A stretch of DNA of 34,914 nt from Hydrurus foetidus (taxonomy: Eukaryota). Within the stretch, counting starts at the first letter, position 1. Every line of letters starts with the position of its first letter. The translations under genes and the position numbers were made by a program. The stretch covers positions 1-34,914 of the forward strand of contig UYFQ01000452.1 in assembly GCA_900617105.1 (NCBI GenBank), in the 5' to 3' direction. The notes under the pieces were generated by a model. The model had not been told where the DNA came from. It did no database searches and saw only the letters and a list, made by a program, of their open reading frames with translations. Positions 1,119 through 34,867 of the stretch are shown here, piece by piece.

Positions 1119-1204
1119 TCGAACGGCTGGTATGAAAACGACTGTTTTAAGTCCGTTTTAAGGGCGCAGGCCTTATAACAGTCGTTTTCATACCAGCCGT
1201 TCGA
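1119..1204. repeat. Perfect 28-bp inverted repeat (hairpin) upstream of YR gene 1
   Basis: TCGAACGGCTGGTATGAAAACGACTGTT (1119-1146) is the exact reverse complement of 1177-1204. Pairing extends imperfectly inward around a C-GCA-G tip (1164-1168). Confidence 0.9.
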
Positions 1205-1271
1205 ATTGCGGCAGCTGAAGCCACCGTTTATGCACAATTATTCACGATCGCAAGAAAAGTCTGACCGTGAA

Positions 1272-2334
1272 ATGCAACTGTCCGACGAGTCTCGCTGGAG
1301 CAGTTTCGTGGATACCATAAAAAGCTGGGACCGTTACCGGCGTTCCCTCGAAAAATACCAGACCTGGTGCGCTTCAAAAGAGATCATATGGGAAGATCCA
1401 CGCCATGTGGAGCAGTACATCGTGGAAATGCACAGCAACTACCTGGAGAGGCCAAAGAGTCAGGACTCATTTTGCGGTAAGACTTGTTGGAGCGTTGTCT
1501 CAATGATAGGCTCATAATTTCCGGCGATGCGAGGAATCACGCTGTCGATTGAGCACAAGCTCGAGCAGTGGCAGAAGCAGGAGAAGATAGACAAGGCCAA
1601 AAGCTTCAGTTACGAAGACATTATGAGGTACTGGACCGACTTTCCTGACGACTGTACCTATTTGGTTAGGAAGGTCGTTTCAGTTATTGCATTTTTGGTG
1701 TCTTACGTTGTGCTGAATATTCTGAAGTTGATTACGAAGATATTGATACCTCACTTGTAAACTCAGCTAAACCTATGATAGTTATTCAGAACGCGGAGCG
1801 CCACAAGAATGTCGTTTGCGAGGTAAGCAGCTTCGGAATCGCCCACCCTGTTGCCATCCAATCATCATGAAATACATTGCATGTTCCCCTCTCCACCATC
1901 GGCGGGGCTTTTTACTCTACAAACTAACTGAAAACATGAAGGCAACTAAACAAAAGATAGGTAAGAATACGATTGGCAACTACGCGAAGCAGATCGCCGG
2001 GCATCTTGGCTTGGAGGAGCCCTCGAGATACACCTCCCATTGTTGGAGGCGCAGTGGGGCCAGCTCACTTGCTGAGCGCGGCGCCAACGAGCGAGAGCTA
2101 CAGACTACCAGGAATGGGGCTTCAGACAAAGTTGCCGTGAGCTACATTTCAGGATCCATCGCCTACAAGAGGAAACTCGCAAATATGCTGGCCCCGCAGG
2201 AGGGGGAGGAAGACGGTCCACGACCGCCACCTGCCGCCCAAAAATCCTGCAGCTCCAACGCCCCGCCAAAGCCTCCCATCGCAAAGTCATCACTGCCACC
2301 TGCAACAATTGTGTTTTCAATCTCGCACCCTTAA
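1272..2334 (+). pseudogene. Crypton-like tyrosine recombinase, disrupted (YR1)
   Basis: Joining frames gives W-Q-K...AKSF, then GVLRCAE (catalytic R, ~1697-1717, frame-shifted), RHK (K), SHCWRR (HxxR) and VAVSY (Y). There is an in-frame stop at 1515-1517 and frameshifts near 1695 and 1845. The usual G-[HW] motif has decayed to RNG. It is colinear with YR2 at 22494-23563. Confidence 0.85.
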
Positions 2335-8300: not shown

Positions 8301-11300
8301 ATAAAATACATTGCATGTTCCCCTCTCCACCATCGGCGGGGCTTTTTACTCTACAAACTAACTGAAAACATGAAGGCAACTAAACAAAAGATAGGTAAGA
8401 ATACGATTGGCAACTACGCGAAGCAGATCGCCGGGCATCTTGGCTTGGAGGAGCCCTCGAGATACACCTCCCATTGTTGGAGGCGCAGTGGGGCCAGCTC
8501 ACTTGCTGAGCGCGGCGCCAACGAGCGAGAGCTACAGACTACCAGGAATGGGGCTTCAGACAAAGTTGCCGTGAGCTACATTTCAGGATCCATCGCCTAC
8601 AAGAGGAAACTCGCAAATATGCTGGCCCCGCAGGAGGAGGGAGGAAGACGGTCCACGACCGCCACCTGCCGCCCAAAAATCCTGCAGCTCCAACGCCCCA
8701 CCAAAGCCTCCCATCGCAAAGTCATCACTGCCACCTGCAACAATTGTGTTTTCAATCTCGCACCCTTAACAACATTGCCTCTCACACCCTAAAATTCCTC
8801 ACCTCTAGTACTTCGACTCAAACACATCTTTAGACGCCACCAAACAATGGAAAGAAATCTCAGTTTCGCACGTAATTTCATAGAAACTTGACTACTTTTT
8901 CTTCAATTAAAAGCTCAGTTTACCACTCGGGCGATTGAGCATTTCTGTCCTCGGATTTTTCGGTTTATTTGAGCCCTTGGGCGGGAATCACCCACCCTGT
9001 TGCCATCCAATCATCATAAAATACATTGCATGTTCCCCTCTCCACCATCGGCGGGGCTTTTTACTCTACAAACTAACTGAAAACATGAAGGCAACTAAAC
9101 AAAAGATAGGTAAGAATACGATTGGCAACTACGCGAAGCAGATCGCCGGGCATCTTGGCTTGGAGGAGCCCTCGAGATACACCTCCCATTGTTGGAGGCG
9201 CAGTGGGGCCAGCTCACTTGCTGAGCGCGGCGCCAACGAGCGAGAGCTACAGACTACCAGGAATGGGGCTTCAGACAAAGTTGCCGTGAGCTACATTTCA
9301 GGATCCATCGCCTACAAGAGTAAACTCGCAAATATGCTGGCCCCGCAGGAGGAGGATGAGGAAGACGGTCCACGACCGCCACCTGCCGCCCAAAAATCCT
9401 GCAGCTCCAACGCCCACCAAAGCCTCCCATCGCAAAGTCATCACTGCCACCTGCAACAATTGTGTTTTCAATCTTGCACCCTTAACAACATTGCCTCTCA
9501 CACCCTAAAATTCCTCACCTCTAGTACTTCGACTCAAACACATCTTTAGACGCCACCAAACAATGGAAAGAAATCTCAGTTTCGCACGTAATTTCATAGA
9601 AACTTGACTACTTTTTCTTCAATTAAAAGCTCAGTTTACCACTCGGGCGATTGAGCATTTCTGTCCTCGGATTTTTCGGTTTATTTGAGCCCTTGGGCGG
9701 AAATCACCCACCCTGTTGCCATCCAATCATCATGAAATACATTGCATGTTCCCCTCTCCACCATCGGCGGGGCTTTTTACTCTACAAACTAACTGAAAAC
9801 ATGAAGGCAACTAAACAAAAGATAGGTAAGAATACGATTGGCAACTACGCGAAGCAGATCGCCGGGCATCTTGGCTTGGAGGAGCCCTCGAGATACACCT
9901 CCCATTGTTGGAGGCGCAGTGGGGCCAGCTCACTTGCTGAGCGCGGCGCCAACGAGCGAGAGCTACAGACTACCAGGAATGGGGCTTCAGACAAAGTTGC
10001 CGTGAGCTACATTTCAGGATCCATCGCCTACAAGAGGAAACTCGCAAATATGCTGGCCCCGCAGGAGGGGGAGGAAGACGGTCCACGACCGCCACCTGCC
10101 GCCCAAAAATCCTGCAGCTCCAACGCCCCGCCAAAGCCTCCCATCGCAAAGTCATCACTGCCACCTGCAACAATTGTGTTTTCAATCTCGCACCCTTAAC
10201 AACATTGCCTCTCACACCCTAAAATTCCTCACCTCTAGTACTTCGACTCAAACACATCTTTAGACGCCACCAAACAATGGAAAGAAATCTCAGTTTCGCA
10301 CGTAATTTCATAGAAACTTGACTACTTTTTCTTCAATTAAAAGCTCAGTTTACCACTCGGGCGATTGAGCATTTCTGTCCTCGGATTTTTCGGTTTATTT
10401 GAGCCCTTGGGCGGGAATCACCCACCCTGTTGCCATCCAATCATCATGAAATACATTGCATGTTCCCCTCTCCACCATCGGCGGGGCTTTTTACTCTACA
10501 AACTAACTGAAAACATGAAGGCAACTAAACAAAAGATAGGTAAGAATACGATTGGCAACTACGCGAAGCAGATCGCCGGGCATCTTGGCTTGGAGGAGCC
10601 CTCGAGATACACCTCCCATTGTTGGAGGCGCAGTGGGGCCAGCTCACTTGCTGAGCGCGGCGCCAACGAGCGAGAGCTACAGACTACCAGGAATGGGGCT
10701 TCAGACAAAGTTGCCGTGAGCTACATTTCAGGATCCATCGCCTACAAGAGGAAACTCGCAAATATGCTGGCCCCGCAGGAGTAGGAGGAGGAAGACGGTC
10801 CACGACCGCCACCTGCCGCCCAAAAATCCTGCAGCTCCAACGCCCCACCAAAGCCTCCCATCGCAAAGTCATCACTGCCACCTGCAACAATTGTGTTTTC
10901 AATCTCGCACCCTTAACAACATTGCCTCTCACACCCTAAAATTCCTCACCTCTAGTACTTCGACTCAAACACATCTTTAGACGCCACCAAACAATGGAAA
11001 GAAATCTCAGTTTCGCACGTAATTTCATAGAAACTTGACTACTTTTTCTTCAACTAAAAGCTCAGTTTACCACTCGGGCGATTGAGCATTTCTGTCCTCG
11101 GATTTTTCGGTTTATTTGAGCCCTTGGGCGGGAATCACCCACCCTGTTGCCATCCAATCATCATGAAATACATTGCATGTTCCCCTCTCCACCATCGGCG
11201 GGGCTTTTTACTCTACAAACTAACTGAAAACATGAAGGCAACTAAACAAAAGATAGGTAAGAATACGATTGGCAACTACGCGAAGCAGATCGCCGGGCAT

Positions 11301-13419
11301 CTTGGCTTGGAGGAGCCCTCGAGATACACCTCCCATTGTTGGAGGCGCAGTGGGGCCAGCTCACTTGCTGAGCGCGGCGCCAACGAGCGAGAGCTACAGA
11401 CTACCAGGAATGGGGCTTCAGACAAAGTTGCCGTGAGCTACATTTCAGGATCCATCGCCTACAAGAGGAAACTCGCAAATATGCTGGCCCCGCAGGAGGG
11501 GGAGGAAGACGGTCCACGACCGCCACCTGCCGCCCAAAAATCCTGCAGCTCCAACGCCCACCAAAGCCTCCCATCGCAAAGTCATCACTGCCACCTGCAA
11601 CAATTGTGTTTTCAATCTCGCACCCTTAACAACATTGCCTCTCACACCCTAAAATTCCTCACCTCTAGTACTTCGACTCAAACACATCTTTAGACGCCAC
11701 CAAACAATGGAAAGAAATCTCAGTTTCGCACGTAATTTCATAGAAACTTGACTACTTTTTCTTCAACTAAAAGCTCAGTTTACCACTCGGGCGATTGAGC
11801 ATTTCTGTCCTCGGATTTTTCGGTTTATTTGAGCCCTTGGGCGGGAATCACCCACCCTGTTGCCATCCAATCATCATGAAATACATTGCATGTTCCCCTC
11901 TCCACCATCGGCGGGGCTTTTTACTCTACAAACTAACTGAAAACATGAAGGCAACTAAACAAAAGATAGGTAAGAATACGATTGGCAACTACGCGAAGCA
12001 GATCGCCGGGCATCTTGGCTTGGAGGAGCCCTCGAGATACACCTCCCATTGTTGGAGGCGCAGTGGGGCCAGCTCACTTGCTGAGCGCGGCGCCAACGAG
12101 CGAGAGCTACAGACTACCAGGAATGGGGCTTCAGACAAAGTTGCCGTGAGCTACATTTCAGGATCCATCGCCTACAAGAGGAAACTCGCAAATATGCTGG
12201 CCCCGCAGGAGGAGGAGGAGGAAGACGGTCCACGACCGCCACCTGCCGCCCAAAAATCCTGCAGCTCCAACGCCCCACCAAAGCCTCCCATCGCAAAGTC
12301 ATCACTGCCACCTGCAACAATTGTGTTTTCAATCTCGCACCCTTAACAACATTGCCTCTCACACCCTAAAATTCCTCACCTCTAGTACTTCGACTCAAAC
12401 ACATCTTTAGACGCCACCAAACAATGGAAAGAAATCTCAGTTTCGCACGTAATTTCATAGAAACTTGACTACTTTTTCTTCAACTAAAAGCTCAGTTTAC
12501 CACTCGGGCGATTGAGCATTTCTGTCCTCGGATTTTTCGGTTTATTTGAGCCCTTGGGCGGGAATCACCCACCCTGTTGCCATCCAATCATCATGAAATA
12601 CATTGCATGTTCCCCTCTCCACCATCGGCGGGGCTTTTTACTCTACAAACTAACTGAAAACATGAAGGCAACTAAACAAAAGATAGGTAAGAATACGATT
12701 GGCAACTACGCGAAGCAGATCGCCGGGCATCTTGGCTTGGAGGAGCCCTCGAGATACACCTCCCATTGTTGGAGGCGCAGTGGGGCCAGCTCACTTGCTG
12801 AGCGCGGCGCCAACGAGCGAGAGCTACAGACTACCAGGAATGGGGCTTCAGACAAAGTTGCCGTGAGCTACATTTCAGGATCCATCGCCTACAAGAGGAA
12901 ACTCGCAAATATGCTGGCCCCGCAGGAGGAGGAGGAGGAAGACGGTCCACGACCGCCACCTGCCGCCCAAAAATCCTGCAGCTCCAACGCCCCACCAAAG
13001 CCTCCCATCGCAAAGTCATCACTGCCACCTGCAACAATTGTGTTTTCAATCTCGCACCCTTAACAACATTGCCTCTCACACCCTAAAATTCCTCACCTCT
13101 AGTACTTCGACTCAAACACATCTTTAGACGCCACCAAACAATGGAAAGAAATCTCAGTTTCGCACGTAATTTCATAGAAACTTGACTACTTTTTCTTCAA
13201 CTAAAAGCTCAGTTTACCACTCGGGCGATTGAGCATTTCTGTCCTCGGATTTTTCGGTTTATTTGAGCCCTTGGGCGGGAATCACCCACCCTGTTGCCAT
13301 CCAATCATCATGAAATACATTGCATGTTCCCCTCTCCACCATCGGCGGGGCTTTTTACTTTACAAACTAACTGAAAACATGAAGGCAACTAAACAAAAGA
13401 TAGGTAAGAATACGATTGG
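1835..13419 (+). repeat. Tandem array: 16 full units of 713-717 bp plus a 142-bp partial unit; each unit is the YR 3' half, trailer and left hairpin arm
   Basis: Unit starts at 1835, 2549, 3264, 3981, 4698, 5412, 6126, 6842, 7556, 8269, 8984, 9700, 10414, 11131, 11844, 12561 and 13278. Units differ by only a few SNPs and indels, mostly in a GAG-rich tract. Confidence 0.98.
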
Positions 13420-13561
13420 TGACTAAGCCCTCTGACTCAAAAACACAGAAATAACCTCTGACAGAAAAAGCTCAATTACGCCCTCGTGGTGAAAATAGCT
13501 ATTGGAGGTGCTCAACTCTAAAAAAGAGTCAACTTTTGCATCAGTAACTAGGAACAGATTT
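13149..13561. repeat. Imperfect long inverted repeat (3' hairpin of YR element 1): arms ~13149-13276 and ~13427-13561
   Basis: Left ACCACTCGGGCGATTGAGCATTTCTGTC pairs with right GACAGAAAAAGCTCAATTACGCCCTCGTGGT. TTGACTACTTTTT pairs with AAAAAGAGTCAA. A CTCG/CTCG internal mismatch is present. Confidence 0.8.
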
Positions 13562-19271: not shown

Positions 19272-19628
19272 AATTTCTCGCTGTGGCTTGGTTCACAATA
19301 AACAGACCTTCAATTTGTGCCACCCAACTCGTGATGAGACGCTGAAATGGTTGTGCAGTAATGTGGAGAGTGGAGTGAGTCGATAAGTTGTTATGTACCA
19401 GCTTTCGGGCAAAAAGAAGTTCAAATGTCACCGAGATTCCGCAAATAAAGGATCGGCGACGGTATGTAATAAATGCCAAATAATACGGAGCTAGATTTGC
19501 AGGGATTAGCTGTTATTTCAGTCATTCTCGTACCGTTGCCTTCCCTTTGTTTGCGGATTTCCTGTGACATAGAACTCCTTTTTGTCCGATTTTCAGTTAT
19601 TTCTAAATATCGAACAGCAGTCATTCCC

Positions 19629-20896
19629 AGAAGTCTTCAGTTCAGTCCACATTGGGTTAGAAAGTTCTTGACACGAGCAAACATGCGAAGACGTAAAATT
19701 ACTACAGATGATAAGAATGTGCCATCAGATGAGGAAATAAAAAGAATAATGAATATCGGTCAATATATGTACAAAGAGTTTGTACACAATAAAGACACGT
19801 CAATAAATATGGATGAAACGGCATTTACTTACGCAATTGGGCCTGAGTATATGTACTGTCCTCCCGACCAACAACGCGCCCAAAACATTGGCATTCCAAA
19901 TACATTCCTACGGATGACAGCAGTTGTTGCGGTAAGTGGCAATGATGAGTTCTTACTTCTATTCATCATAATCAAACACTCAGTTAGCTCAGAAGATAGG
20001 CCAGATCAGTCAGGAATGAGAGTAATTAGAGATCTTCATAGTAAGAATAAAGGATTCGGTGCTGATGATGGTTGGGATCTAATCAATTGGACAAAAGAGT
20101 TGACAATAAGAGGCATTACAAACACTCATGCGTGTTACTATATCATTAACATTAATACAGGAAATGTTATAACTAGCCAGTACAAAGCATGGAATGACTC
20201 AATTAGAATGATAATGTGGTTAGAAATTGTAGTGAAGCCATTGAAAGAGAAGTTAGGAAAATTATTGATATGGTTTGATAATTGTGGGTGTCATAAAACA
20301 GCAATAGTGGATGACACATTAACTGAGTTAGGTGTACAAATAGCATGTCTACCACCCAATATGACGGGTTTCTTACATGTGTTAGATTTGGTTGTAAATG
20401 GGCCACTAAAAGCACACACAAGAAATCTTAGAGGAGCTAGGATAGTGGAAAGTTTTCACGAATTCGTCAAGGAATACAAAGAGGAGTCAGCAAAAGATGT
20501 ACGTACACGTAATTTACCTACCTTTCAACCCCCTAAACCCGAAATGCTACAAGGCATCCAAGACCTGTTTGATCTAATAGCAGGAGGATTCAGATAACAA
20601 AAGTTTGTCGATGGTGTGAAAAGGTCATTTGTCAGTACAGGATGTGCTCCTTTTGATGAATCGGATGTGTCACAACCACTATTTAAACAGTAATCCAAAC
20701 ACAATGTATGTAGAACAATGAAAATCGTACCTACTGGAACATCTGAATCCTCCATTTGCAGCAGCATTAATTCTGATGATATTGCACTAGATGAATTGAG
20801 TGGAGAGGGCTTAATGTTATGCTAGAGTATGATAGTGCAATGTTCGCATACGACCACGAGATTACAGAGGCCATGAACTTCATTGATAATTTGTAA
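19629..20896 (+). pseudogene. DD35D transposase of P2, 5'-truncated
   Basis: Paralogue of the P1 transposase (FSPHWVRKF, MDET, WFDN, LPPNMT, HVLD). Premature stops at 20595 and 20690; it ends in the homologous ...EITEAMNFIDNL*. Confidence 0.88.
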
Positions 20897-21109
20897 CTCC
20901 ATTTTGATTGTTTAAAAAAAATAGTGTATATTAAAAATTAAGATTAATTACACACAGTAAAGATTAATTAAATCAAGATTAAAATTAAAAAGTTAAAGTT
21001 CATCGAAAAATTTAAAAAATAAAGTCATATCGGTGAATGCACACTGCTGCAGAATATGAGATTAACACTGTGGATGACTCTCGCGTAGGAGGGATGATAG
21101 GTTGTGATT

Positions 21110-21710
21110 GAAATCATCTTTCTTGCTACTGAATATAACGACATTCAGTGCATAACCACTTCAGGCGTGTGAAGTGTCACCATCACATAAACAGCATTCA
21201 AAGGTTACAGTGTGCAGCAGATTTAGTCACAGAATTATTGCACAGCTTAGTCGTCGTCTAAGCTAGGATGAGGTTCAAAGTAATGAAAGTGCTACAGATC
21301 ATATCAGCAAGGAGGGAAGAATTCTAAACGCGGAGGTGTTCAGTCTAGAGACAGGGAAGGACAGAAATCCTCCATCACATTGGGGTATAGACAGGGGAGT
21401 TTACGGCATCACACTACAGAGATGCATTCGAATTCTACAAGTCAGAAATGTACAGAAACTTTGGGCAGCGATTCGCCTCGCTTACAATCAGCGTCGAAAT
21501 GTTAGATTCAATCAGCAGCGAAAAGTTACAGCATACTCTGCTTGAAAATATTTCACAAAAAAAATAGCGCCTGGGAATTCGTGACTGCCAACCATGCGGA
21601 TTATGCATGTTCCGTTTCAGCCGGCAAGTCGAGCCTCTCCTAACTTTGTTCCCTTTGTCCAAAGCGAAGAGTCCACTGGCTCGGCAGTCGAAGTCAAATA
21701 TCCGAAGCAT
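21110..21710 (-). pseudogene. Unknown convergent second gene of P2 (fragments)
   Basis: FDFDCRASGLFALDKGNKVRRGSTCRLKRN (~21610-21698) and NLLHTVTFECCLCDGDTSHA*SGYALNVV (~21135-21225) match the P1 fragments in the same order. Confidence 0.65.
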
Positions 21711-21980
21711 GATTGATACGTGTGATAAAATTTAAGATGTCAATTTTAGAATCAACCTGATCTCGTGGCCTGCGGCACATTTCAAATTTCGCTTTGATGT
21801 AACAATCATCAACCAAATCTGTCCATAAAATGACATCATCACCATCCCCAGAGAAATTGATGAGCTCGAAACGTACCGTGTCGAAAATGATGACGACGTC
21901 TTCTGAAACTTCCAGCGATGCAGTCAGGTATCAGATAAAAATTTCCTTTCATTGAAATGAGATAGGAGTCAGATAGTAAT

Positions 21981-22148
21981 TTCGTACCGAGGCCAGAAAC
22001 GAGGCTTGTTTTTCTGACCGAGGGGTCTTTTTGCGGCTCAAAAACGCCCCGAAGGGCTCCCGCAGGGTGACGCGAGGGCGTTTTTGAAACCGCAAAAAAA
22101 ACCCGAGGTCAGAAAAACAACGCCGAGTTTCTGTGCCGAGTGTACGAA
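21981..22148 (+). repeat. 168-nt rod-like hairpin with four symmetric CGAG-type internal mismatches and a C-GCA-G tip
   Basis: Paired stems TTCGTAC/GTACGAA, CAGAAA/TTTCTG, TTGTTTTTCTGAC/GTCAGAAAAACAA, TTTTTGCGG/CCGCAAAAA and TCAAAAACGCC/GGCGTTTTTGA. CGAG faces CGAG at 21988/22137, 22000/22124 and 22019/22104; CGAAG faces CGAG at 22050/22073. Confidence 0.92.
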
Positions 22149-22493
22149 TATTTCTTTCCATACCAGGTACAAAATACGGATTTAGTATCAAGGTCGAACA
22201 TATGTATTTGAACTTTTTTCGCTGTCGCCCACCTGCAGGGTTGCTTATGCATCTGTTTCGGGCCCCACGCTCGTGGGTTCGAGGCCCGTTTGTCCCCTGC
22301 GGAGGCCGGGCTTTCTCACCCGACAATTTTCACCCGGTGGTTCGCCGTTTTCCTCCTCAAATCCTCTAATGCAAAATTGTTTCGTATTCATTCTTTCATT
22401 AGCCATGAATTTATTTAGCGCAACCCAATTTATTTTTTCCCCAAAATTGACTAATGTTCATAGAAACGATTGAATTAAAGTTTACATAATGTT

Positions 22494-23836
22494 TCAGGAT
22501 TTGTATTCAGTAGGACTGTAGGTTACATTGTTGCAATTATTGAAGGTAATATTAACTACAGTTCCTTTGTGAGTGTTGCTACTGGAGCTCGTTGCTGTAG
22601 ATGTGCTTTGACTGTTGTTTTGAGTATTGTGGACACTCATGTCGTTGTAGGTCCTCTTTCTCAAGACTGTTCCACCTTGTCCCCGCTGAAGTCCACCAAG
22701 TGATAGGATGTCGGCGCCTCCCTGCTTCATGTGGTCCGAATGATCGATGTATCTCTGTGCAACCATATCGCTCTTGTGTCCCGTTACCTGCTTTATCGCA
22801 GCCAATTGCATGCCGGCTTCTGCGCAAATTGTGGCACACGTCCGGCGGAAAGTGTGGCCTGTGTACAGGTTGGCATCCAGCAGGCCAAGTCTTGTCGCGA
22901 TGCGCATACCCGTCTTTGCCGTGATGTTGTGCCCGATGACTTGTTTCGTGCCCTTGATGCTGAATCCATTCTGCGAGGCAGTAAGCTTCCTGAAATATCT
23001 CCCCTTCTTGACAGCCATTTCGAAGGCTTTCTCGTACTCGAAGAAACCTCAACTTCCAGCGCCCCCGTTATCAAAGCCTGACTCTGCTCAGGCACTCCTT
23101 TCTGTTTGGTGCGCAGATACTTGACGAGAATCTTCACCTCTCCAGTATCCTGACTCACAGTTCGCGAGACATCTTCAAACGTGACCTTAATGATCTCGGC
23201 TCCTCTACCACCGAAAGATAATCCTATAACTGAGTATGCCGTGTCAGCAAGGTTTTCTGGCGTACGTGGCATTTGGTAAAATCTTACCAGCTCTTCCTTG
23301 GTGAAAACCTTCGCTTGCTTCGCTTGCTGCTGCTGCTTCTACTTCGTGGCGATGTTCGCTTCGAGCTGCGGCGCGATAGCCTTCAAATCTGTGTACCTCA
23401 CAAATTTCCAAAATTTCCTGTATACCGACAGCCAACTCCTTAGAGTTGTCGCCCGGTATCGGTCCGTGCCGTCGGCATTCTTTTCGTTGAGTTTAAGATG
23501 GAAATATGCATTGAGCTGTTGCTCCAATGTCATGTCGCTTGTGTTCTCGCTAATATAATCCACAAAATCTTGAATTTTCTCCCATGTACGCTTTTTTGGA
23601 GTGGAAGTTCTGCATGATTTCCACCCAGGATAGGCAGTTTTGTCCTATGTCAATCTCGTTAATTTTGCGCCTGATCTCTCCTAGAAGTCATTACGTGGAC
23701 AGTTTTCATCGTTTTCAAAATTGTCATCGTTATTGAAATTCATCCAGTCATCGTCGTAGTTTGTTGAATCGTCCTCCACTAGAGGCTGCTGTTGGGATTC
23801 ACTTTGGACCTGAGATAGATCCTCGTTGAACTGCAT
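22494..23836 (-). pseudogene. Crypton-like tyrosine recombinase (YR2), disrupted but with catalytic residues intact
   Basis: GGRGAE (R), LRTK (K), HTFRR (HxxR), GHKS (H) and AQRY (Y); the tail reads ITFNNCN. In-frame TAG at 23339-23341 aligns with a W in YR1. There is a frameshift near 23046. The acidic N-terminus from the ATG at 23836 is degraded. Confidence 0.88.
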
Positions 23837-24907
23837 AATTGTAGTTTAATACGTAAAACTTCCGTAGCTTCGTCTCCAGCTATAGGTAATACTTCCTTTC
23901 AATTATAGGGTTGCCGATTGATTATAACCATAATCGACCGGCAATTTGAGTGTGAGCGGTCAATTATGAAATTCCGGTCACAAAAAAGTCTTAGGTCCAA
24001 TAAACCTAAAATTTGAGTGGGTCTCTAGGCCTCACAAAGGAGTATTTCGTACCTACAGGTATGAAAAGTTAAATAACTCTCTATTTAGAATTGCAGGGCT
24101 CGCTATATTGATGATTTTTTAGTGCTGTGAGTGCGAAAGCTCCATCATGGACAAAAAGGAGTCCTATGTCACGGGTACACACTAGGGGTTCTGGCTAGGC
24201 TAGATTTTGCCGCCTAGCCCTAGCCAGTGGCTAGGCTAGATGTATGGCTAGATTTTGTCGAAAAATCTAGCTCAACTAGCCCGGCTGGCTAGCTTTTATT
24301 TTTTTCTGGCTGGCTAGCTTTTCTTTGGAAAGCTAGCCATAGCAAATCAGATGGCAAGTTGAAGATCATCTAGATGATGGTTACACTATTTTGATTGGAA
24401 ACGCTTCTTCTCCTCTGTCCGCGCAACTCATCTCGCTCTCAACAATCAACAACTCATCAACTGCAGAGAACAGCAATCAATCTCCGAATTCTCAAGCCTT
24501 CATCGTCTATCCAGTTGACGTGCCATCCATCCCGTCACGGATTCTGTGATCATTGTGCTCAAAAGGTAACAAAATTTACGCTTGCAAGTGCCACATCTGA
24601 AATCATGATTGCTTTTGAATTTCGAAGCATAACTAACACAGATCTCGTCGAATTAAATCTCCAGTTGAATCTACAGTCGCAATTAGTTGGAGAGCCTGTA
24701 ATTCTTAGTCGGTAGCCTTCATTTCGAAGCCAAAGTTTTCAAAGCTACCTGAAGGTTGCGACGTGTATTTTGTGTAGTGGAGACCATTTATTGCTGAAAA
24801 TTGTGCAGAATTTCTAACTGTGTCTATTTAACATGAAGTCACTGACTGTAATAAAACGCTGGCAAAATTTGGAACTCAGATTCAGCAACGATATTCGTCA
24901 AAGTGGG

Positions 24908-27579
24908 ATGGCAGACTTTCCTGGTCTTATATGTGAAGAACCAAGTTGCGTGGCGCACGTCCATGATGAATGTTATCATTGCAAGAAGTCGTTGTGCATC
25001 ATCTGCGTAGATGTTCATCACTGTCCGAATGCACCATGCTCATCAAATTCAGCTTCCGCAGCGAATCAAGTTCCATCTGCTGTGGCTGTGACTGCAGTCG
25101 CTGTCTCCACCGCCTTCGCTCCGGCTGCACAAAGTCGAGCCGCTTTCGAGAGAAATAAGAAAAGAGCAGTACTGGATCTCCTTGCACAGGAGTCTAATAA
25201 ATGTCCTAAATATTCTGCCACCGATTCTTTTGTTGATGTTCGTACCTACCCCTTAACGGTGATGACCACTTCAGTTAATCGATCTTGGCTTTGGAATAAC
25301 TTTAAAAGAATAATAGTAAAAGTAGGTACACCTAAAATAGTGACTTGGGCGGATTCTCATGCAGCATGCAACATTTGTTGCGAAAAAGCGCTAACGGATG
25401 AGAATATAAAGTGGGCTGTTTCGTATACCTCTCAACACAGTCCAGGTCATCTGGAGAGACACGTGAAACAGTATCACAACGAAATCATCGTTGGACGTAG
25501 AAAAGACTTAGCAGTTGAAGAAATGCAATGGAAGTCCATCACATCGTATTTCAAAAAGCATGCAGACATTGAGGAACGTTACTTAAAGTGGGCTGTTCAC
25601 ACCTTTCAGCCTCTGAACACGATAGAGGGGGAGCATTTCCGAGCGATGTGTCGGTCTCTTAGCCCAGAAGCTCCTATCCTGACAAGCTTCAGCGTCATGA
25701 AAAGATTGCTGCAGATGCAGGCAAATATCAAATTTCTCTTCCGGAAGGCTTTAGAGGGCCAGCACATGGCAATAACTTTAGACCACTTGACAAGTATCGC
25801 TATTTCTTTTCTTTTCTTTTCTTTTCTTTTCTTTTCTTTTCTTTTCTTTTCTTTTCTTTTCTTTTCTTTTCTTTTCTTTTCTTTTCTTTTCTTTTCTTTT
25901 CTTTTCTTTTCTTTTCTTTTCTTTTCTTTTCTTTTCTTTTCTTTTCTTTTCTTTTCTTTTCTTTTCTTTTCTTTTCTTTTCTTTTCTTTTCTTTTCTTTT
26001 CTTTTCTTTTCTTTCTTTCTTTTCTTTTCTTTTCTTTTCTTTTCTTTTCGTTTCGAAAATATTGTCGGGGTTGTTACCGACTCAGCGAAGGATATGAATG
26101 CTTTTGGCCGCTTTATCACTTCCACAACAACGTCACATCATAGCTGCTTCGATCACTGTCTTAGTAAGTTTAGAGTCGAATCGAATTGTATTAAATAACT
26201 AACAACGTTATTTGGTGCTGATTTTGCAAAACACTTATTAATTCTTGTTTTCTTTTTCTTTATTAGACTTGTGCACAAAACTAGCATTTCCAGATAGTGA
26301 CTTGTCAGATGGAACGATGAAGAAATGTCGCGATCTGGCGGGATACTTTACCATGTCGTGCCAAGCTGCAGAAATCCTTCGCTTAAAACAAGGACCTCGA
26401 CCACTAGATGTCGTTCAAGATGTAGCAACAAGGTGGTGGTCCACATTTTCAATGTTAGAGAGGATGCTTTATCTTAGGCCTTACTTTTCTTTAATGGTCA
26501 GAGAGGGCCCTACTTTTATCTGTCGTGAACTTGAGTGGTGAACAGTGGACTATTGTAGAAGACATTTGTATTTCAGGAATGTTCAACAGATTATGGAGGG
26601 CGAAAAGTATGTTACCATAAGCCTCATTCCAGGTACAATAATACCAAAAAATTTATGTTCTTGACAATCACTAAGCTAATTTGTTACAATTACGTCTTAT
26701 TAGGCATGATAAATCAAATCAGAGCTGGCATGATAAAAGTTGACGGCGACAATCAGAAGAGTGCTGCCGTTGCTTTGGTATTGCAAAAAATCAAGGCAAA
26801 ATTTGACGAAGAGTTCGGTACTGGAGAAGCCGGTACTGTTTTTACAGATCACATACATGGGGGACCATTTCTGAGGCTGAAGGGGTTTCCACTGAAGACC
26901 ATAATAGCTGCGGCCTTAGATCCGAGGACGAAGACTCTTGTGGGTGAGATAATTAACCATTTGTATGAACGCGCAATTGAGTGTCTTATTCATTATTCTA
27001 TAAACAATAGATATACCAGCTACCGCTGATGATCGCGAGAAGGTATGGGCATCAATCAAAGACATTATGATAGATCCCTGGGTGGCTAGCTACAACGCTA
27101 ATGTAACAGCTTCCGATGTTGCTGTATTACACGGCGCTAGAATTCTACCCGTAGAAGATGATCCATGGGCAGAGGCTAACGAAGAGGTGTCATTGCCAGG
27201 AATACCGCCTATAAATCTACATGAAGTTCACAGGAAAGTAAATGAAGAACTTGTCGAGTATAGAGCGCTCTTGAAAATTGATATGAGAGAGACTCTAGAG
27301 AATGGCGAAAAGGGTAAATTTACCGATCCTCTACTTTGGTGGAAAAATCGTGAAAAAAACTTTCCAACATTGTCCAAAATAGCGAGAAAAATCCTCTGTA
27401 TCCCAGGCACATCTGCTCCCTCTGAGAGAGTATTTTCTGTTGCAGGACTTACTATTTCAAAACTGCGTGCTAAGCTTGATCGTGAGAATGCTTCCTGTTT
27501 GATATTTTTAAGAGACAATTGGGAGTTGAGTGAAGAGTTAAGGATATCCATGAAAAATGCTGTCAATGATGTCGCATGA
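24908..27579 (+). pseudogene. hAT transposase with three predicted introns, disrupted
   Basis: BED-like finger (CNIC...HLERHVKQYH), ITLD, VVTDS, CFDH, TRWWST, and the dimerisation domain PLLWWK...PGTSAPSERVFS. Frame-preserving introns at 26164-26266, 26633-26703 and 26944-27010. Disrupted by a microsatellite and a frameshift near 26525. Confidence 0.92.
25803..26049. repeat. (CTTTT)n microsatellite, about 49 copies
   Basis: Directly visible, with one interruption near 26011-26020. Confidence 0.98.
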
Positions 27580-27953
27580 ATGTAGCAGAATAGCAGAAAA
27601 GGTGTTTTGTAGTATCTGATTTTTTATTATATAAGAAAAAGGCTGTCGTTTTAACGAATTTCGCTCTATTTTGGTGTGTCGGCTAGACATCTGGCTAGGT
27701 TCTAAATGCTGGTGTGTGGCTAGTGACTAGGCTAGCAATTGTGTCTGGGCTAGCAATTTCGGCTAGATTTGGACGTTTTTACGGCTAGCCGGGCCAAAAT
27801 CTATAAAAAGGGCTAGCCAGAACCCCTAGTACACACACTCAACACCTCCGCAAACAAAGGGAAGGCGACGGTAGTGGCAAGATTTGTATTTTGGGGGTCT
27901 ATTTTAGGGGGACTATCATTTGGGGGGTCACAGATCCAATGAAAGGGGGACTA

Positions 27954-28383
27954 CCGTCTAGTCCTATATGTTTGGTAAACGGTTTTGTCAAAATGACTGT
28001 TTTTCGAGTATACCAAGTGCAATAATGAAGAAAAGTTAGGGTATTATTCGCGCATCGCATGCCCCATGAAATTCCACACAAAATTATATATGGTCGTATC
28101 GCATGTCTGATTATGGTTTAGTTGCTAATGGCTGCTTAGCGCACCATTTTTGACATGTTCGGTACTTGGGGACCGCGATATTGCAAATCGCAAAATTATT
28201 TTGACAAATTTCAAATATGCCATCTATCTTAAATAATTGTGCTGAATTTGAATTGATAGCTAACTCTTCATGATTCTGAATATTGATGAAGATAGTTTTT
28301 CGGTGAAATTATTTTTTGGTGATTTTGAGTGTGGTCAAATGGCCTATTACCATTTTTTTTACCAAACATATGGGACTAGACGG
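27954..28383. mobile_element. 430-bp MITE with TA TSD and CCGT termini (Tc1/mariner/pogo type)
   Basis: 26-bp TIR CCGTCTAGTCCYATATGTTTGGTAAA with 1 mismatch, TA on both sides. Confidence 0.9.
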
Positions 28384-28427
28384 TACTGCCATAATCAATG
28401 CTACGTCACATATAATGTCCTGTACGC

Positions 28428-28640
28428 ATGAACTGGAAGTCCACCAAAATTGGATTATTTCGGAAAATCAAAACACGGATACTACCTGGTATCAAATTTT
28501 TTGATAGCAGGTAGCTATTTGCTGAGGTTCAAATTGGACCCCAGCGAATTGCTACCTGGTATCAAAAAATTTGAAACCAGGCAGTATCCGTGTTTTGATT
28601 TTCCGAAATAATCCAGTTTTGGTGGACTTCCACTGTTCAT
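28428..28640. repeat. Near-perfect ~210-bp foldback (palindromic MITE-like)
   Basis: TGGAAGTCCACCAAAATTGGATTATTT...CACGGATACT is mirrored by AGTATCCGTG...AAATAATCCAGTTTTGGTGGACTTCCA. Internal TACCTGGTATCAAA repeats. No clear TSD. Confidence 0.9.
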
Positions 28641-30739: not shown

Positions 30740-31074
30740 AAAGAAAATCTAAACTACACTAAACTATGGCGAAACCCCCGTTTCTATATGTGAAAATCCC
30801 AATATTTAACTAAGAACATAAATGATTACTGAAAACGAAAATCAAGATTATGTACAAATAACTTAAATGTGCAGGTATGTACAAAAGAAATGTATAAGGG
30901 GTTTCGGAGATTTGAGAAAGATAAGTATAAGGGAGTATGTACAAAACAGAATCGTTCTGTTGTACGAGGGTCTAACGTAATTATGTCAGATTTTTACTGA
31001 CTAAAAAACCATAAAAATCCCTTGTGAGGGCAAAAATTAGGCCAAAAAATCTTCAAAAGATATTACGTTTGAGC

Positions 31075-34000
31075 TCAAACCTCGGTGGTTGATCCCTCAA
31101 TATTCCTGGGAACAAAACGCGACATGTTATTGTTCCTCAAGTATACATGGAGTGCATCACAGAGCCGGAGATTCTTCCAAGGCTCCCATGTATTATGTGA
31201 GTCATCATAGTTGAGCCATTTCACATGGAACGACATCGTAGTCGGTTTCTTTTTATCACCCGAGTGATTAAGAACTTTCTCAACGAAATACTCCATGTAA
31301 TCGCGACGTGCTGTATCAGCAGGTAAGCCCATCGAAGGGTCATAATTGAATATTTTAAGATTCGTTACATGTACACTATTGTGTTTATGTGTAATTAAGT
31401 TCGCGAGAACATACTCGGATCCTTCAAAGGATACAACACGGAAAGGGCCTTTCCATTTAGTGTGTAATCGAGTTGGAGGGTGTTCTTGTTTTACCAAGAC
31501 ATACGACCCTATAGGGAACACTGTCAAACCGGATGTCGACTTTTTGTGTTTTTCATCACATTTTTGAAGTGAGTCGATTGCTGCATCGAGGACTTTGTCC
31601 TGTATCTCGATTAAATCAGCAATGTATGTTGAATTTGAAGATGATACCATTGGTAACAAATGAGGTGTTAAAATCCCTCGATTCAAATCAAGTTTATCCG
31701 CGAATAGGATAGATGCTGGACTTGCACCCGTACGTTTATTAACTGAACTATTTATAATTCGTTGTACGAACGGAATGCATTTTGCATAATGGACAAGAGA
31801 CGGTGTATCGAACACCAGTCCTTTTAAATGTCTATTTATCTCTTTATTGACTCGTTCAACAATCGCATTCTCTTGAGAGAGTAAGCTAGAGTGAGGTTAT
31901 GGGGCGTACCCGTAAGATCTAAGAACTCTTTTATGAGATCATTAGCGAAATGGGATCCACGATCCGATCTTATCATGTTTGGCGAACCGATCGACCAAAA
32001 TGTGTTAATAAACTCTCCGCTGCAGATTCGGCAGTAGCGTCCTTACACCAGAACATTTCTGTCCATCTGGAGAAGGTGTCAATTATGACGAGAATATACC
32101 CCTTATCGGGGAAAGGACCCACATAGTCAATATTCAACGTATCGAAAATTGCGTGAGTAGAAGTTGAAAAATGGGCTGCATTGATTTTCGCATCAACCGC
32201 ACTTAGTTTTTGACAACAAGGACAGTTCCGTATGTATGAACGTACGTGCTGTTTCATATTTCTCCACACTTGGTTTAGACTGTAAAGTCGAGTGAGGGTT
32301 CGGTCGACACCGTTGTGACCAACAATTGCATTGTGGCACATCTGGATATGAAGTATTTGTTCATCTGTGGCCGGTTCGATAACCGTTAAAGCCGCCACAC
32401 TTGTGGAAGAAGATGAAGATGATGATGAACAAACATCTCTGACAATTGTCAATGGTAGAGCAATTTCAGTAAGATTTGGACATAAACGTGATAGCGCATC
32501 GGCTAATTCGTTATCCGATCCTTTAACAAAATGAACGGTGAAATCGAGTTCTTGCATTGCAATGAACCACCGTGCTACCATCGAAGTAGGGTTTTGTTTC
32601 ATATATGTCAAATTCATATGATCAGTATGAATAGTGAATTTCCTATCTCGGATAAGGTAATCCAATTGTTGGCAGCAATAAAAGATAGCGTAAGCCTCCT
32701 TTTGTATTGTTGACCAATTAATCTGAGTTGCAGATAGAGATTTGCTAATAAAAGCGATTGGTTTCCATTCGTCATTAATGACTTGGAATAATACACCACC
32801 GATTCCATAATCAGATGCATCAGTATATAATCTGATGGGTGAAGTTTCATCGATGAAATACATCAATGGACAACGAGATACCGCGATCTTTGTCTCATTG
32901 AATGCGTTTGTCCCCTCGAGGGTCCAAAAAATTGGAGAGCGTTTAACCGCCTTTGGGTCCACCATCATGTGAAGTGGTTTTACCATTTCTGAGTGAAAAG
33001 GAACGAATTGACGGAAATAATTGGCCAAGCCAAGGAATCCCCGTAATGCCGTAACTACTTTGGAAGTGGAAAGTTGAGTACTGTCTCAATCTTTTCTTTC
33101 GACATGGATAAACCATCTTTGTCGATGACTCGTCCTACGTATTCGATACGTTTAAGACCGAATCGGCATTTCTTTGCTTTGAGTTTAAGATTTTTAAGTC
33201 TAAATCTCTCAAAGACTTTCCTCAAGTTCAAAAGAAACTCTGCTTCGCCCCGGCCATATACAATGCAATCGTCGAGATACATCTCGCAACAGCTGTATAT
33301 GAGACCGTGAAGGACCGTTGTCACCATCTGCTCTTGAAAGTAAGAGGGGGCACGACAAGGGCCAAAAGGCAATCTTGTGAATTGAAACACCCCCATGAAA
33401 CATATAAATGCCGTATAGATTCGGTGGGGTGTATATAAAGGAGCTTGATGGTAACCCGCGGTTAAATCCATCACCCCATAAATATCCGGTTTTCGATTAC
33501 CGATCCTCTCAAAGAGGTGTTTGATATTTGGTAGTGGAAAGGAGGCCGGCTCAATGCATTCATTGAGTGCTCGATAATCGATGCAGGTTCGATATGTATC
33601 GGCTGTCTTATTTACCATTACAGGATGACTGTAGTATGCAGCGTTCGACCTCTCGATCACACCATCTTCCAACATTTCTTCGATAGAAGTGCGGAGATAC
33701 TGTTCCTTTTTAGAGGATTGGGTCGCACTGGTGCGTGGTTCGATGGAACCTCCCATTTCTGCCGTGGCAGGTTTATCTCAAACGGCTTGAGGTCAGCAGC
33801 TTGCGGAGCTAGCTTATCACTGAATATATCAGCGAATTCAGAACAGAGAGTACGGAGATCGTTTTGAAGGCTTTCATCTCCTTCAAAATGAATCTGAGAC
33901 AAGAAATCATCCGGCCCATTGGGCGGTACATTCCGGCACGTCTTGTCACGCAAGAAAGGTGCGAAGGTATCAGTTTTATCATCGTCAATCTCGTCAACGG

Positions 34001-34867
34001 AGAGTGCGACACCGCTTGGCCATATGGCTTCCGCGTCATAGTCTGATGTAACAGTGTCCCCAGAGGTATGTGTGAGGATGGGAATCGAGTCACCATCTAG
34101 GTGCGGGGTATCACCCGTACGTTTCGCGAGTACAGTCGAGACACTGTCCAGTCGCTCACAACCCACATCACCACATGGACTTTGGGTAGCTACTCCCTTG
34201 GTACCATCCTGGGTAACGTTACACGTGAACGTTGTATGACAACCTGACCCTACGACTTCCTTGGTTAGAGGTGCGTGCAGAATGGCCTTCTTAGGTGTTG
34301 GCTTTGGGCATAGACCGTATGGTTCTTTCCGATCCGAAAGTTTTGCTTTTGTGTGATACCCTTTAACATATCGTATGTAGGTGTAATCGACTCTACTTCG
34401 GTTCTTCGGGTATGAAAACCCTCAGATATCATACGTCTGGTGTATTTGTGCCAGTGAAGCGGGTCAAGCTTGGCTATCGCTTCCCTTTCTTCAAACTCGA
34501 GCCAACGAGCATCACGCTTCCTTTTGTTCTCGGCACTAAGCTCGGGAGAAATGCCAAAAGCGAAAGGTGTTAATGACATAAAATCATATTTATTTACAGT
34601 TTTTCGACTTAATAAAAGTTCAATGTCTGTGTTCCTATTAACCCGCATCGTTAAAGGGATGGTATGACATTCGCCGTCATAAGAATGAAATTTAAGAATT
34701 AAATCAATCATTTCGTTATTTATATAGCACTGGCCATCGAGACCAGAGCAAACAGTAATGGCTTTAGAAGCTGTATAACAGTTATGTTTAGCATTCAATT
34801 TATCAATCATAGTGAAGGAAATAAAATCCTCGGAGTAATTGGCGGTATCGAGTACGGCCTTGCCCAC
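31075..34867 (-). pseudogene. pol: pol polyprotein, frameshifted
   Basis: Protease VLDTA; RT CIDYR, DLTAGYHQ, LPFG and YLDD; RNase H TDAS, KEAYA, TDH and ADALSR; integrase HHCC, IDYVGP and WKGPF; chromodomain YFVEKV...VKWLNY...TWEP. Frame breaks near 34265, 33720, 33055 and 31990. Confidence 0.95.

What the first reader, a model, noticed from the sequence alone, without database searches (positions are those of the whole stretch)
21981..22148. Strand-asymmetric hairpin 3' of a eukaryotic tyrosine recombinase: candidate attC-like folded ssDNA site
Seen: a 168-nt rod whose interruptions are not random. CGAG faces CGAG at mirror positions three times, CGAAG faces CGAG once, and the tip is C-GCA-G. 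Established: tandem sheared G.A pairs in CGAG context and GNA triloops closed by C-G are unusually stable in ssDNA, whereas the complementary strand would have T.C mismatches; integron IntI, also a YR, recombines attC as a single-strand hairpin. Inference: the antisense strand of this Crypton-like element is the folding strand and may be the recombinase substrate or a replication origin. I cannot verify from here whether this has already been described for Cryptons.
Basis: partly seen in the sequence, partly recalled or inferred. Interest (0 to 1): 0.85.

Follow-up and report, generated by a model that had tools for sequence, protein, structure and literature searches.

The report
G·A-studded hairpin ends recombinase transposon
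This long DNA hairpin forms one tip of a small eukaryotic jumping gene that encodes a Cre-like recombinase, and its repeated G·A mismatches, all on one strand, suggest that a folded single strand is likely used when the element moves, a step never demonstrated for this class of transposon.

Summary
The rod is real (z about -9.5) and is the left tip of a ~2.1 kb Crypton-like element (21974 to ~24069) whose single gene, broken in this copy, is a Cre-like tyrosine recombinase. Three CGAG blocks face CGAG; other copies restore the fourth. A second, distant recombinase element in this window and a gene-less metagenome relative with an unrelated stem also carry facing GA/GA pairs on the same strand (3, 2 and 3 pairs; 0 on the other strand; 0 in 7 other inverted repeats). 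The rod is followed by an inverted pair flanking the gene, so joined ends would fold into one continuous stem across a loxP-like two-half-site junction. Best reading: the G·A strand likely folds and is recombined as a single strand, like CTXphi attP or attC (0.5; inferred, untested). The folding model cannot show the asymmetry, no contig links a rod to an intact gene, and no strand-releasing enzyme is encoded. I found no description in ten paper searches; a 2026 review calls Crypton transposition undemonstrated. This scan noted the same plan earlier in coral and algal DNA (unchecked notes).

The parts
21974..24069 (.). Whole Crypton-like element E1, about 2.1 kb; both ends uncertain by about 3 nt
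   Evidence: A contig of run X1 joins 21973 to 24071, skipping 2097 nt with 4 other letters between. Contigs with different flanks stop matching at 21969-21976; loose ends in run X4 begin after 24068.
21975..22061 (+). Arm A of the rod, with CGAG blocks at 21988, 22000, 22019 and CGAAG at 22050 (CGAG in other copies); its first ~20 nt are the conserved left-end motif
22061..22065 (+). Tip C-GCA-G, a GNA triloop with C:G closing pair
   Evidence: Sequence; the relative L012 has a GAA tip; stability from PMC3201870 (passages)
22065..22153 (+). Arm A' of the rod, CGAG blocks at 22073, 22104, 22124, 22137; one extra unpaired base near the foot
   Evidence: the same one-base bulge in E1, L012 and the L008/L023 pair
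22141..22164 (.). Predicted recombination site: two inverted half-sites about 6-8 nt apart, spanning the foot of A' and the start of B
   Evidence: Conserved in E1, L012 and L023 although not part of the search pattern; role inferred from the site layout given in PMC3212892
22154..22177 (+). Inverted repeat B
   Evidence: Pairs with B' (22 paired columns)
22241..22372 (.). 132-nt GC-rich unit that exists as a very high-depth tandem repeat in organism A
   Evidence: Joints 22372 to 22241 and summed depth about 100,000 in X12; 45,185 in X1
22494..23836 (-). Cre-like tyrosine recombinase gene, broken here (offsetting indels near 23580-23680, a stop near 23340, a frameshift near 23044); intact 450-aa relatives exist
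   Evidence: PF00589; P0001 97% over the C-terminal part; R214, K247, H331, R334, Y366 nearly invariant among 46 relatives; Cre best match
24042..24068 (+). Inverted repeat B', ending at the right terminus with a half-site
13200..13503 (-). G·A rod of a second recombinase element E2 (arms 13425-13503 and 13200-13276), 3' of its gene on the antisense strand, tip interrupted by duplicated gene sequence
   Evidence: Two facing GA/GA, no TC/TC
1206..2328 (+). Recombinase gene of E2 (broken), about 31-34% identical to P0001 over the catalytic part; its 3' half plus one rod arm is repeated 16 times (~715 nt)
19561..24175 (.). Host element into which E1 appears inserted: inverted repeats 19561-19587 and 24149-24175, DDE_1 frame at 19473-20597

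Best explanation
The rod is the left end of a Crypton-like DNA transposon, and its G·A-bearing strand likely folds on itself so that the element's Cre-like recombinase would cut and join a folded single strand. Shown: layout A-tip-A'-B-gene-B', terminal position, several insertion sites, facing CGAG blocks on one strand in three unrelated stems, and a conserved two-half-site junction with a one-base bulge. Inferred: (1) when the antisense strand is exposed, for example at a replication fork, A pairs with A' and B with B'; tandem sheared G·A pairs and the GNA tip would stabilise this strand only, because the other strand has T·C pairs; (2) the fold brings both element ends opposite the central site; (3) one strand exchange would release a single-strand circle shaped like a dumbbell with one recombination site; (4) that site would recombine with a short target, and replication would resolve the junction, as for attC and CTXphi. 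Gene-less miniatures with the same ends would be moved in trans.
For: Terminal position. Other copies repair ordinary mismatches and complete the fourth CGAG block. Facing GA/GA versus TC/TC: 3:0 in E1, 2:0 in E2, 3:0 in L012; 0:0 in 7 other inverted repeats of the window, B/B' among them. Decay null: 0 of 200,000 with three. Both recombinase elements of the window (2 of 2) have the rod 3' of the gene on the antisense strand. Of 54 metagenome loci found with the left-end motif alone, 2 (L012, L023) also carry the unsearched A'-foot motif and a B/B' stem. L012 folds at z -9.54 with a stem unrelated to E1. Loose ends show further families whose left and right pieces are complementary but differ from E1. 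Joined ends fold as one continuous rod, 24042-24068 pairing with 22154-22177. The breakpoints of the E2 array fall at its rod tip, a weak hint that the rod forms in vivo. Chemistry: PMC10085684, PMC3201870 (passages). Precedent: PMC4792948 (passages).
Against: The folding model gives both strands nearly equal energy, and the joined ends fold as well on the - strand (-73.8 against -73.3). No contig spans a rod plus an intact gene, and five scans for recombinase loci found none, so gene-rod linkage rests on two broken elements in one genome. No helicase or HUH nuclease is encoded to release a strand. The enzyme is closest to Cre, a duplex recombinase. Most G·A blocks lie far from the predicted cut site. 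The L008/L023 family has only one block (CGAG facing CAAG), and E1's B/B' stem has none. L020 and L076 have the left-end motif without a rod. The empty site differs by 4 letters from a clean join. E1 and one block of L012 were selected for CGAG, so they are not independent.
Confidence: 0.5

Rival explanations
1. Classical Crypton model: the recombinase works on duplex sites to excise and insert a double-stranded circle. The rod extrudes on one strand only as an accessory signal (origin or priming site for the circle, or a directionality switch), not as the substrate.
For: The enzyme is Cre-like. A complete two-half-site site exists in the duplex at 22141-22164. A double-stranded circle is the model in print (PMC13565253 and PMC3212892, passages). 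It explains G·A polarity equally well.
Against: It does not explain why the element ends are complementary to the central site with a conserved one-base bulge. No replication protein is encoded.
Confidence: 0.22
2. The CGAG motifs are direct-repeat protein sites in duplex DNA, or mismatches selected only to make a long palindrome less harmful; no fold is used.
For: CCGAG-like words recur on one strand. Interrupting a palindrome lowers cruciform formation (general knowledge). 2-nt micro-inversions could turn CTCG into CGAG.
Against: The blocks face each other in exact register in unrelated stems. Breaking symmetry needs no particular mismatch or strand, yet the count is 8 GA/GA to 0 TC/TC. The tips are GNA in both intact rods.
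Confidence: 0.12
3. The fold acts as RNA: an antisense transcript forms a long hairpin with tandem G·A pairs that regulates the element or evades double-stranded-RNA silencing.
For: The + strand folds strongly as RNA (-99.9 kcal/mol, z -11.1). Tandem G·A pairs are stable in RNA too (recalled).
Against: The mRNA would carry the T·C strand. GNA triloop stability is documented for DNA (PMC3201870). The rod ends are half-site-like and lie at the terminus. No Rfam match reaches threshold.
Confidence: 0.08
4. The recombinase acts as a telomere resolvase or as an Flp-like invertase on the inverted central and junction sites, producing hairpin-ended linear or amplified intermediates.
For: The junction and central site are near-inverted copies. 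Tandem amplifications sit in or beside both elements. Flp amplification of the 2-micron plasmid is recalled, not read.
Against: Protelomerases score Z 6-7 and Flp 9.2 against Cre 19.6. The two sites differ by one base in the spacer. G·A polarity is unexplained.
Confidence: 0.06
5. A decayed palindrome or an independent MITE that sits beside the gene by chance.
For: Gene-less relatives exist (L012, L023), and the outer 40 nt have far higher summed depth than the tip in X12 (10,685 against about 730).
Against: The empty site removes rod and gene together. E2 repeats the arrangement. The gene-less relatives keep the full A/A'/B/B' plan. The decay null fails.
Confidence: 0.02

Closest known systems
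Crypton DNA transposons (Kojima and Jurka 2011, PMC3212892; review PMC13565253)
   Same: Eukaryotic DNA element whose only gene is a tyrosine recombinase with the R-H-R-Y residues; gene-less derivatives; no target duplication seen.
   Different: Cryptons are described with 4-6 bp direct repeats or no terminal repeats and no inverted ends; 'hairpin', 'palindrom' and 'stem' occur 0 times in PMC3212892 and PMC13465315. Here there is a terminal G·A rod plus an inverted pair. No DUF3504 or GCR1_C among 46 relatives and no TATGG termini. The nearest Atlas model cluster is arthropod PF00589 (TM 0.79), possibly CryptonI (label inferred).
CTXphi attP integration by XerCD (PMC4792948, passages)
   Same: A folded single strand would present a duplex-like two-half-site substrate to a recombinase without the I2 specialisation.
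   Different: CTXphi is a phage that borrows host XerCD. This element encodes its own enzyme, has no phage or replication genes, and carries G·A blocks.
Integron attC / IntI (PMC4792948, passages)
   Same: Structure conserved while stem sequence varies; strand selectivity built into imperfections; a conserved extra base near the site.
   Different: One rod per element, no cassette array or attI; selectivity would come from tandem G·A pairs; the enzyme is nearer Cre than IntI4 (Z 19.6 against 13.8).
HUH transposons: IS200/IS605, Helitron, Replitron (PMC13565253, PMC10288648, passages)
   Same: End hairpins read strand-specifically; single-strand circles; no target duplication.
   Different: No HUH nuclease here; the rod is about 180 nt rather than a small hairpin.
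Cre/loxP
   Same: Best sequence match (E 2e-15) and best structural match (296 residues aligned, rmsd 3.7); inverted half-sites around a short spacer.
   Different: Cre acts on duplex loxP; half-sites here are about 8-9 nt and distributed over the element ends and the rod foot.

Membership tests
Crypton (broad) | Tyrosine recombinase with R-H-R-Y residues as the only gene, no reverse transcriptase | tested here: met
   the window copy is broken, relatives are intact
Crypton (broad) | Dispersed mobile copies and non-autonomous derivatives | tested here: met
   Different flanks at the left end and an empty site; L012 and L023
Crypton (broad) | 4-6 bp terminal direct repeats | tested here: inconclusive
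   Only 2-3 shared letters (AG/AGT) at the ends of the one complete copy; ends uncertain by about 3 nt; animal Cryptons lack such repeats too
Crypton (broad) | No inverted end structures | tested here: not met
   Rod A/A' and pair B/B'; hence filed as Crypton-like only
CryptonA | DUF3504-type recombinase | tested here: not met
   0 of 46 members match DUF3504 at E 0.01; structural similarity to DUF3504 clusters TM 0.75-0.78
CryptonF | GCR1_C domain | tested here: not met
   0 of 46
CryptonS | TATGG termini | tested here: not met
   Ends read
CryptonI | Placement in the insect Crypton clade | not tested
   No reference sequences on hand; nearest Atlas cluster is arthropod
Integron attC/IntI | Recognised only as a folded single strand | not testable with these tools
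   Needs cleavage and strand-transfer assays
Integron attC/IntI | Extrahelical bases that set strand choice | tested here: inconclusive
   One-base bulge conserved in E1, L012 and L008/L023; role unknown
Integron attC/IntI | Cassette array with attI | tested here: not met
   One rod per element, at its end
Integron attC/IntI | I2 insertion in the integrase | tested here: inconclusive
   Cre ranks above IntI4; the insertion region was not aligned residue by residue
HUH transposons (IS200/IS605, Helitron, Replitron) | HUH nuclease | tested here: not met
   Only PF00589 in the element's frames scanned and in intact P0001
Independent MITE | Own terminal inverted repeats, moves apart from the gene | tested here: not met
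   The empty site lacks rod and gene together; E2 repeats the link

The most novel reading that the evidence does not exclude
A widespread group of eukaryotic transposons moves as a folded single strand. One strand of the element folds into a dumbbell chosen by tandem sheared G·A pairs and a GNA tip, and its own Cre-like recombinase excises and integrates it by single strand exchange. This would be a eukaryotic, self-encoded counterpart of attC and CTXphi recombination, and a genome-encoded use of non-Watson-Crick DNA pairs as a strand selector.
Probability: 0.4. Interest if true: 0.9.

Novelty: new variant of a known kind. Interest (0 to 1): 0.72.

Why it matters
A 2026 review states that Crypton transposition has not been demonstrated and assumes a double-stranded circle (PMC13565253, passage). 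This locus supplies defined ends, a predicted site, natural intact enzymes and a sharp strand-specific prediction, so the question becomes testable with oligonucleotides. If the single-strand model holds, it adds a new transposition route in eukaryotes, gives sheared G·A pairs a biological role, and offers a compact structure-reading recombinase. The end plan is also a way to annotate gene-less Crypton-like repeats.

Tried and rejected
No own genome is held, so copies were studied through contigs of eight public runs. Depths there are not copy numbers; the roughly tenfold depth of gene contigs (991-1099) over a unique flank contig (112) in X1 is only a hint of several copies. No RNA holder was listed. 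Scans for recombinase loci found none: viral, metagenome (27) and genome contigs (31). The left-end motif gave 1 viral hit (L001, inside phage coding DNA, no rod), 54 metagenome hits and 1 genome hit. Of the 54, I kept L012, L008 and L023, noted L020, and treated the other 50 as chance; 11 were examined in detail (output partly cut). L019 has a short stem but lacks the A'-foot motif and was dropped. The central-site motif gave 20 viral hits, none with a rod. No recombinase was found in any of the 76 loci. Folding energies were rejected as a test of asymmetry (GA/GA -7.8, TC/TC -7.4, AA/AA -8.0; all triloops -2.4). Rfam gave only sub-threshold hairpin matches. CpG decay as the source of CAAG variants is unproven (CpG observed/expected 0.92 in 13501-34914). 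A covariation count on an alignment was not made because stems of different families do not align. B' of E2 was not located. Ten paper searches returned no description of Crypton end hairpins. Repbase and Dfam entries, subscription papers and supplements were not seen and may describe them.

Full report
Observation. The + strand of 21961-22168 folds as DNA into one long rod, -60.2 kcal/mol, z -9.46, 0 of 200 shuffles as good; the - strand gives -57.2, z -9.43. Aligning the arms around the C-GCA-G tip gives 71 pairs, 12 mismatches and 10 gaps. The three clean two-by-two loops are all CGAG facing CGAG, and the CGAAG near the tip faces a fourth CGAG. Among 200,000 simulated palindromes decayed by 12 substitutions none had three such loops. 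The energy model cannot show strand asymmetry, because it scores GA/GA, TC/TC and AA/AA loops almost alike and all triloops equally.

The gene. The - strand carries a broken tyrosine recombinase at 23836-22494 (PF00589). An intact 450-aa relative, P0001, is 97% identical over the C-terminal part, and its cluster has two more 450-aa members. The family is large: 1,713 representatives at E 0.001. R214, K247, H331, R334 and Y366 are nearly invariant in 46 aligned members; 42 of 46 match PF00589 and none DUF3504 or GCR1_C. The model (pLDDT 81.6) matches Cre best (Z 19.6, rmsd 3.7, 296 aligned), then XerH 16.2, XerA 15.1 and IntI4 13.8, with protelomerases at 6-7. A profile search agrees (Cre E 2e-15, IntI4 3e-4). 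The neighbourhood is eukaryotic repeat DNA (DDE_1, hAT and chromodomain LTR-retrotransposon frames). The host is not identified; the stretch is held in freshwater, sediment and air metagenomes.

The element. No own genome is held, so I laid contigs of eight runs. A contig of X1 joins 21973 to 24071 with four other letters between: an empty site that lacks rod and gene together. Contigs of four runs leave the window sequence at 21969-21976 into different flanks, and loose ends in X4 begin after 24068. The rod is therefore the tip of a ~2.1 kb element, apparently inserted in a DDE-type element (inverted repeats 19561-19587 and 24149-24175). Other copies read G at 22053 in all covering contigs, which completes the fourth CGAG block, and carry changes at 22068, 22099 and 22101 that close ordinary mismatches. 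With these four letters the rod folds at -70.9 against -66.6 for the other strand. The outer 40 nt have much higher summed depth than the tip, and loose ends show sibling families whose left and right pieces complement each other but not E1.

End plan. The rod (A/A') is followed directly by B (22154-22177), which pairs with B' (24042-24068) at the right end. The foot of A' and the start of B form two inverted half-sites around a short spacer, the layout that PMC3212892 gives for tyrosine-recombinase sites (passage). The left and right ends each carry a matching half-site. Joined in silico at their shared AGT, the ends fold into one continuous stem opposite the central site, on either strand. 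I saw the B/B' pair before consulting earlier notes (note). The A/B labels, the ends-brought-together idea and the CTXphi comparison were taken from those notes and then tested on this DNA.

Independent cases. (1) A second recombinase element in the window (gene 1206-2328 on +, 31-34% identical over the catalytic part) has its own rod 3' of the gene on the antisense strand, starting with a similar end motif and with two facing GA/GA pairs. Its 16-copy 715-nt array has breakpoints at the rod tip. (2) A 16-nt left-end motif found 54 metagenome loci; 2 of 54 also carry the unsearched A'-foot motif. L012 is a complete rod with an unrelated stem (no blastn match), z -9.54, three facing GA/GA pairs, a GAA tip, the same one-base bulge and a gene-less B/B' stem. 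L008 and L023 are complementary halves of another family with one CGAG/CAAG block. Totals: facing GA/GA 3, 2 and 3, facing TC/TC 0, 0 and 0; seven other inverted repeats of the window have none of either. E1 and the outer block of L012 were selected for CGAG and are not independent.

Results against. Five scans for recombinase loci found none, no fetched locus encodes one, and no contig spans rod and gene. L020 and L076 have the end motif without a rod. The empty site is not a clean join. No enzyme that releases a strand is encoded. The enzyme's best relative works on duplex DNA.

Mechanism. CGAG blocks with two sheared G:A pairs are stable in DNA hairpins (PMC10085684, passages), and d(GNA) loops closed by C:G are especially stable (PMC3201870, passages). 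Exact facing register in unrelated stems is hard to explain without a fold, and one-sided polarity points to one chosen strand. I put a functional fold of the G·A strand, as DNA or RNA, at about 0.8, and its use as the recombination substrate at 0.5. The precedents are attC, recognised only as a folded strand and resolved by replication, and CTXphi, whose folded site is read by XerCD without an I2 domain (PMC4792948, passages). The main rival keeps the duplex-circle model and uses the rod as an origin or switch.

Comparison and novelty. It works like a Crypton in gene content but fails the 'no inverted ends' description and the markers of CryptonA, F and S; it is not an integron or an HUH element. 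In PMC3212892 (parts 1-2 of 7 read, plus term search) and PMC13465315 (term search) the words hairpin, palindrom and stem do not occur. PMC5753468 (passages) notes conserved Crypton termini without structure. PMC13565253 (passages) says the mechanism is undemonstrated. PMC11296320 and PMC10288648 (passages) concern other elements. Ten searches found no description; Repbase, Dfam, subscription papers and supplements were not seen. This scan's earlier notes report the same plan in coral, algal and diatom-like DNA; they are unchecked and not counted as evidence. Verdict: a real feature, a new variant of a known kind, interest 0.72.

Noticed in passing
window 1835-13424: Sixteen ~715-nt tandem copies of the 3' half of the E2 recombinase gene plus one rod arm. 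The unit junction uses a short shared sequence and both breakpoints lie at the rod tip, suggesting repeated template switching there.
   Followed up: partly
window 22241-22372: A 132-nt internal segment of E1 occurs as a tandem repeat at about 100 times the gene's depth in organism A, a satellite possibly born from the element.
   Followed up: partly
window 1119-1204: Near-perfect 36-bp hairpin just upstream of the E2 gene; both arms carry the same half-site word as B' of E1, with no G·A blocks.
   Followed up: partly
window 28434-28632: 199-nt near-perfect palindrome (92%) containing a 10-letter word shared with repeat B, no G·A blocks; next to another inverted pair at 27947-27979 / 28358-28390.
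   Followed up: partly
L020:49-1140 (+) and 1360-1380 (-): The left-end motif (20 letters) without a rod lies 3' of a Pif1-like helicase frame (PF21530, just under cut-off), in the same orientation as in E1. It could be chance, a truncated insertion, or a helicase-carrying relative.
   Followed up: partly
L076:281-299: The left-end motif in a 1-kb AT-rich contig of a bacterial MAG; it looks like eukaryotic contamination and has no rod.
   Followed up: partly
L023 (- strand 330-45) and L008: The B/B' stem of this family has CAAG facing CAAG, one transition away from CGAG on each side.
   Followed up: partly
window 24196-27829: Decayed hAT element with many short GGCTAG-type subterminal repeats and a long (CTTTT)n run at 25810-26050; a chromodomain LTR retrotransposon lies at about 31000-34400 on the - strand.
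   Followed up: no
proteins P0003-P0008, P0012: Many relatives stop at the same place just before the last catalytic segment, which suggests a shared intron that E1's gene lacks.
   Followed up: no
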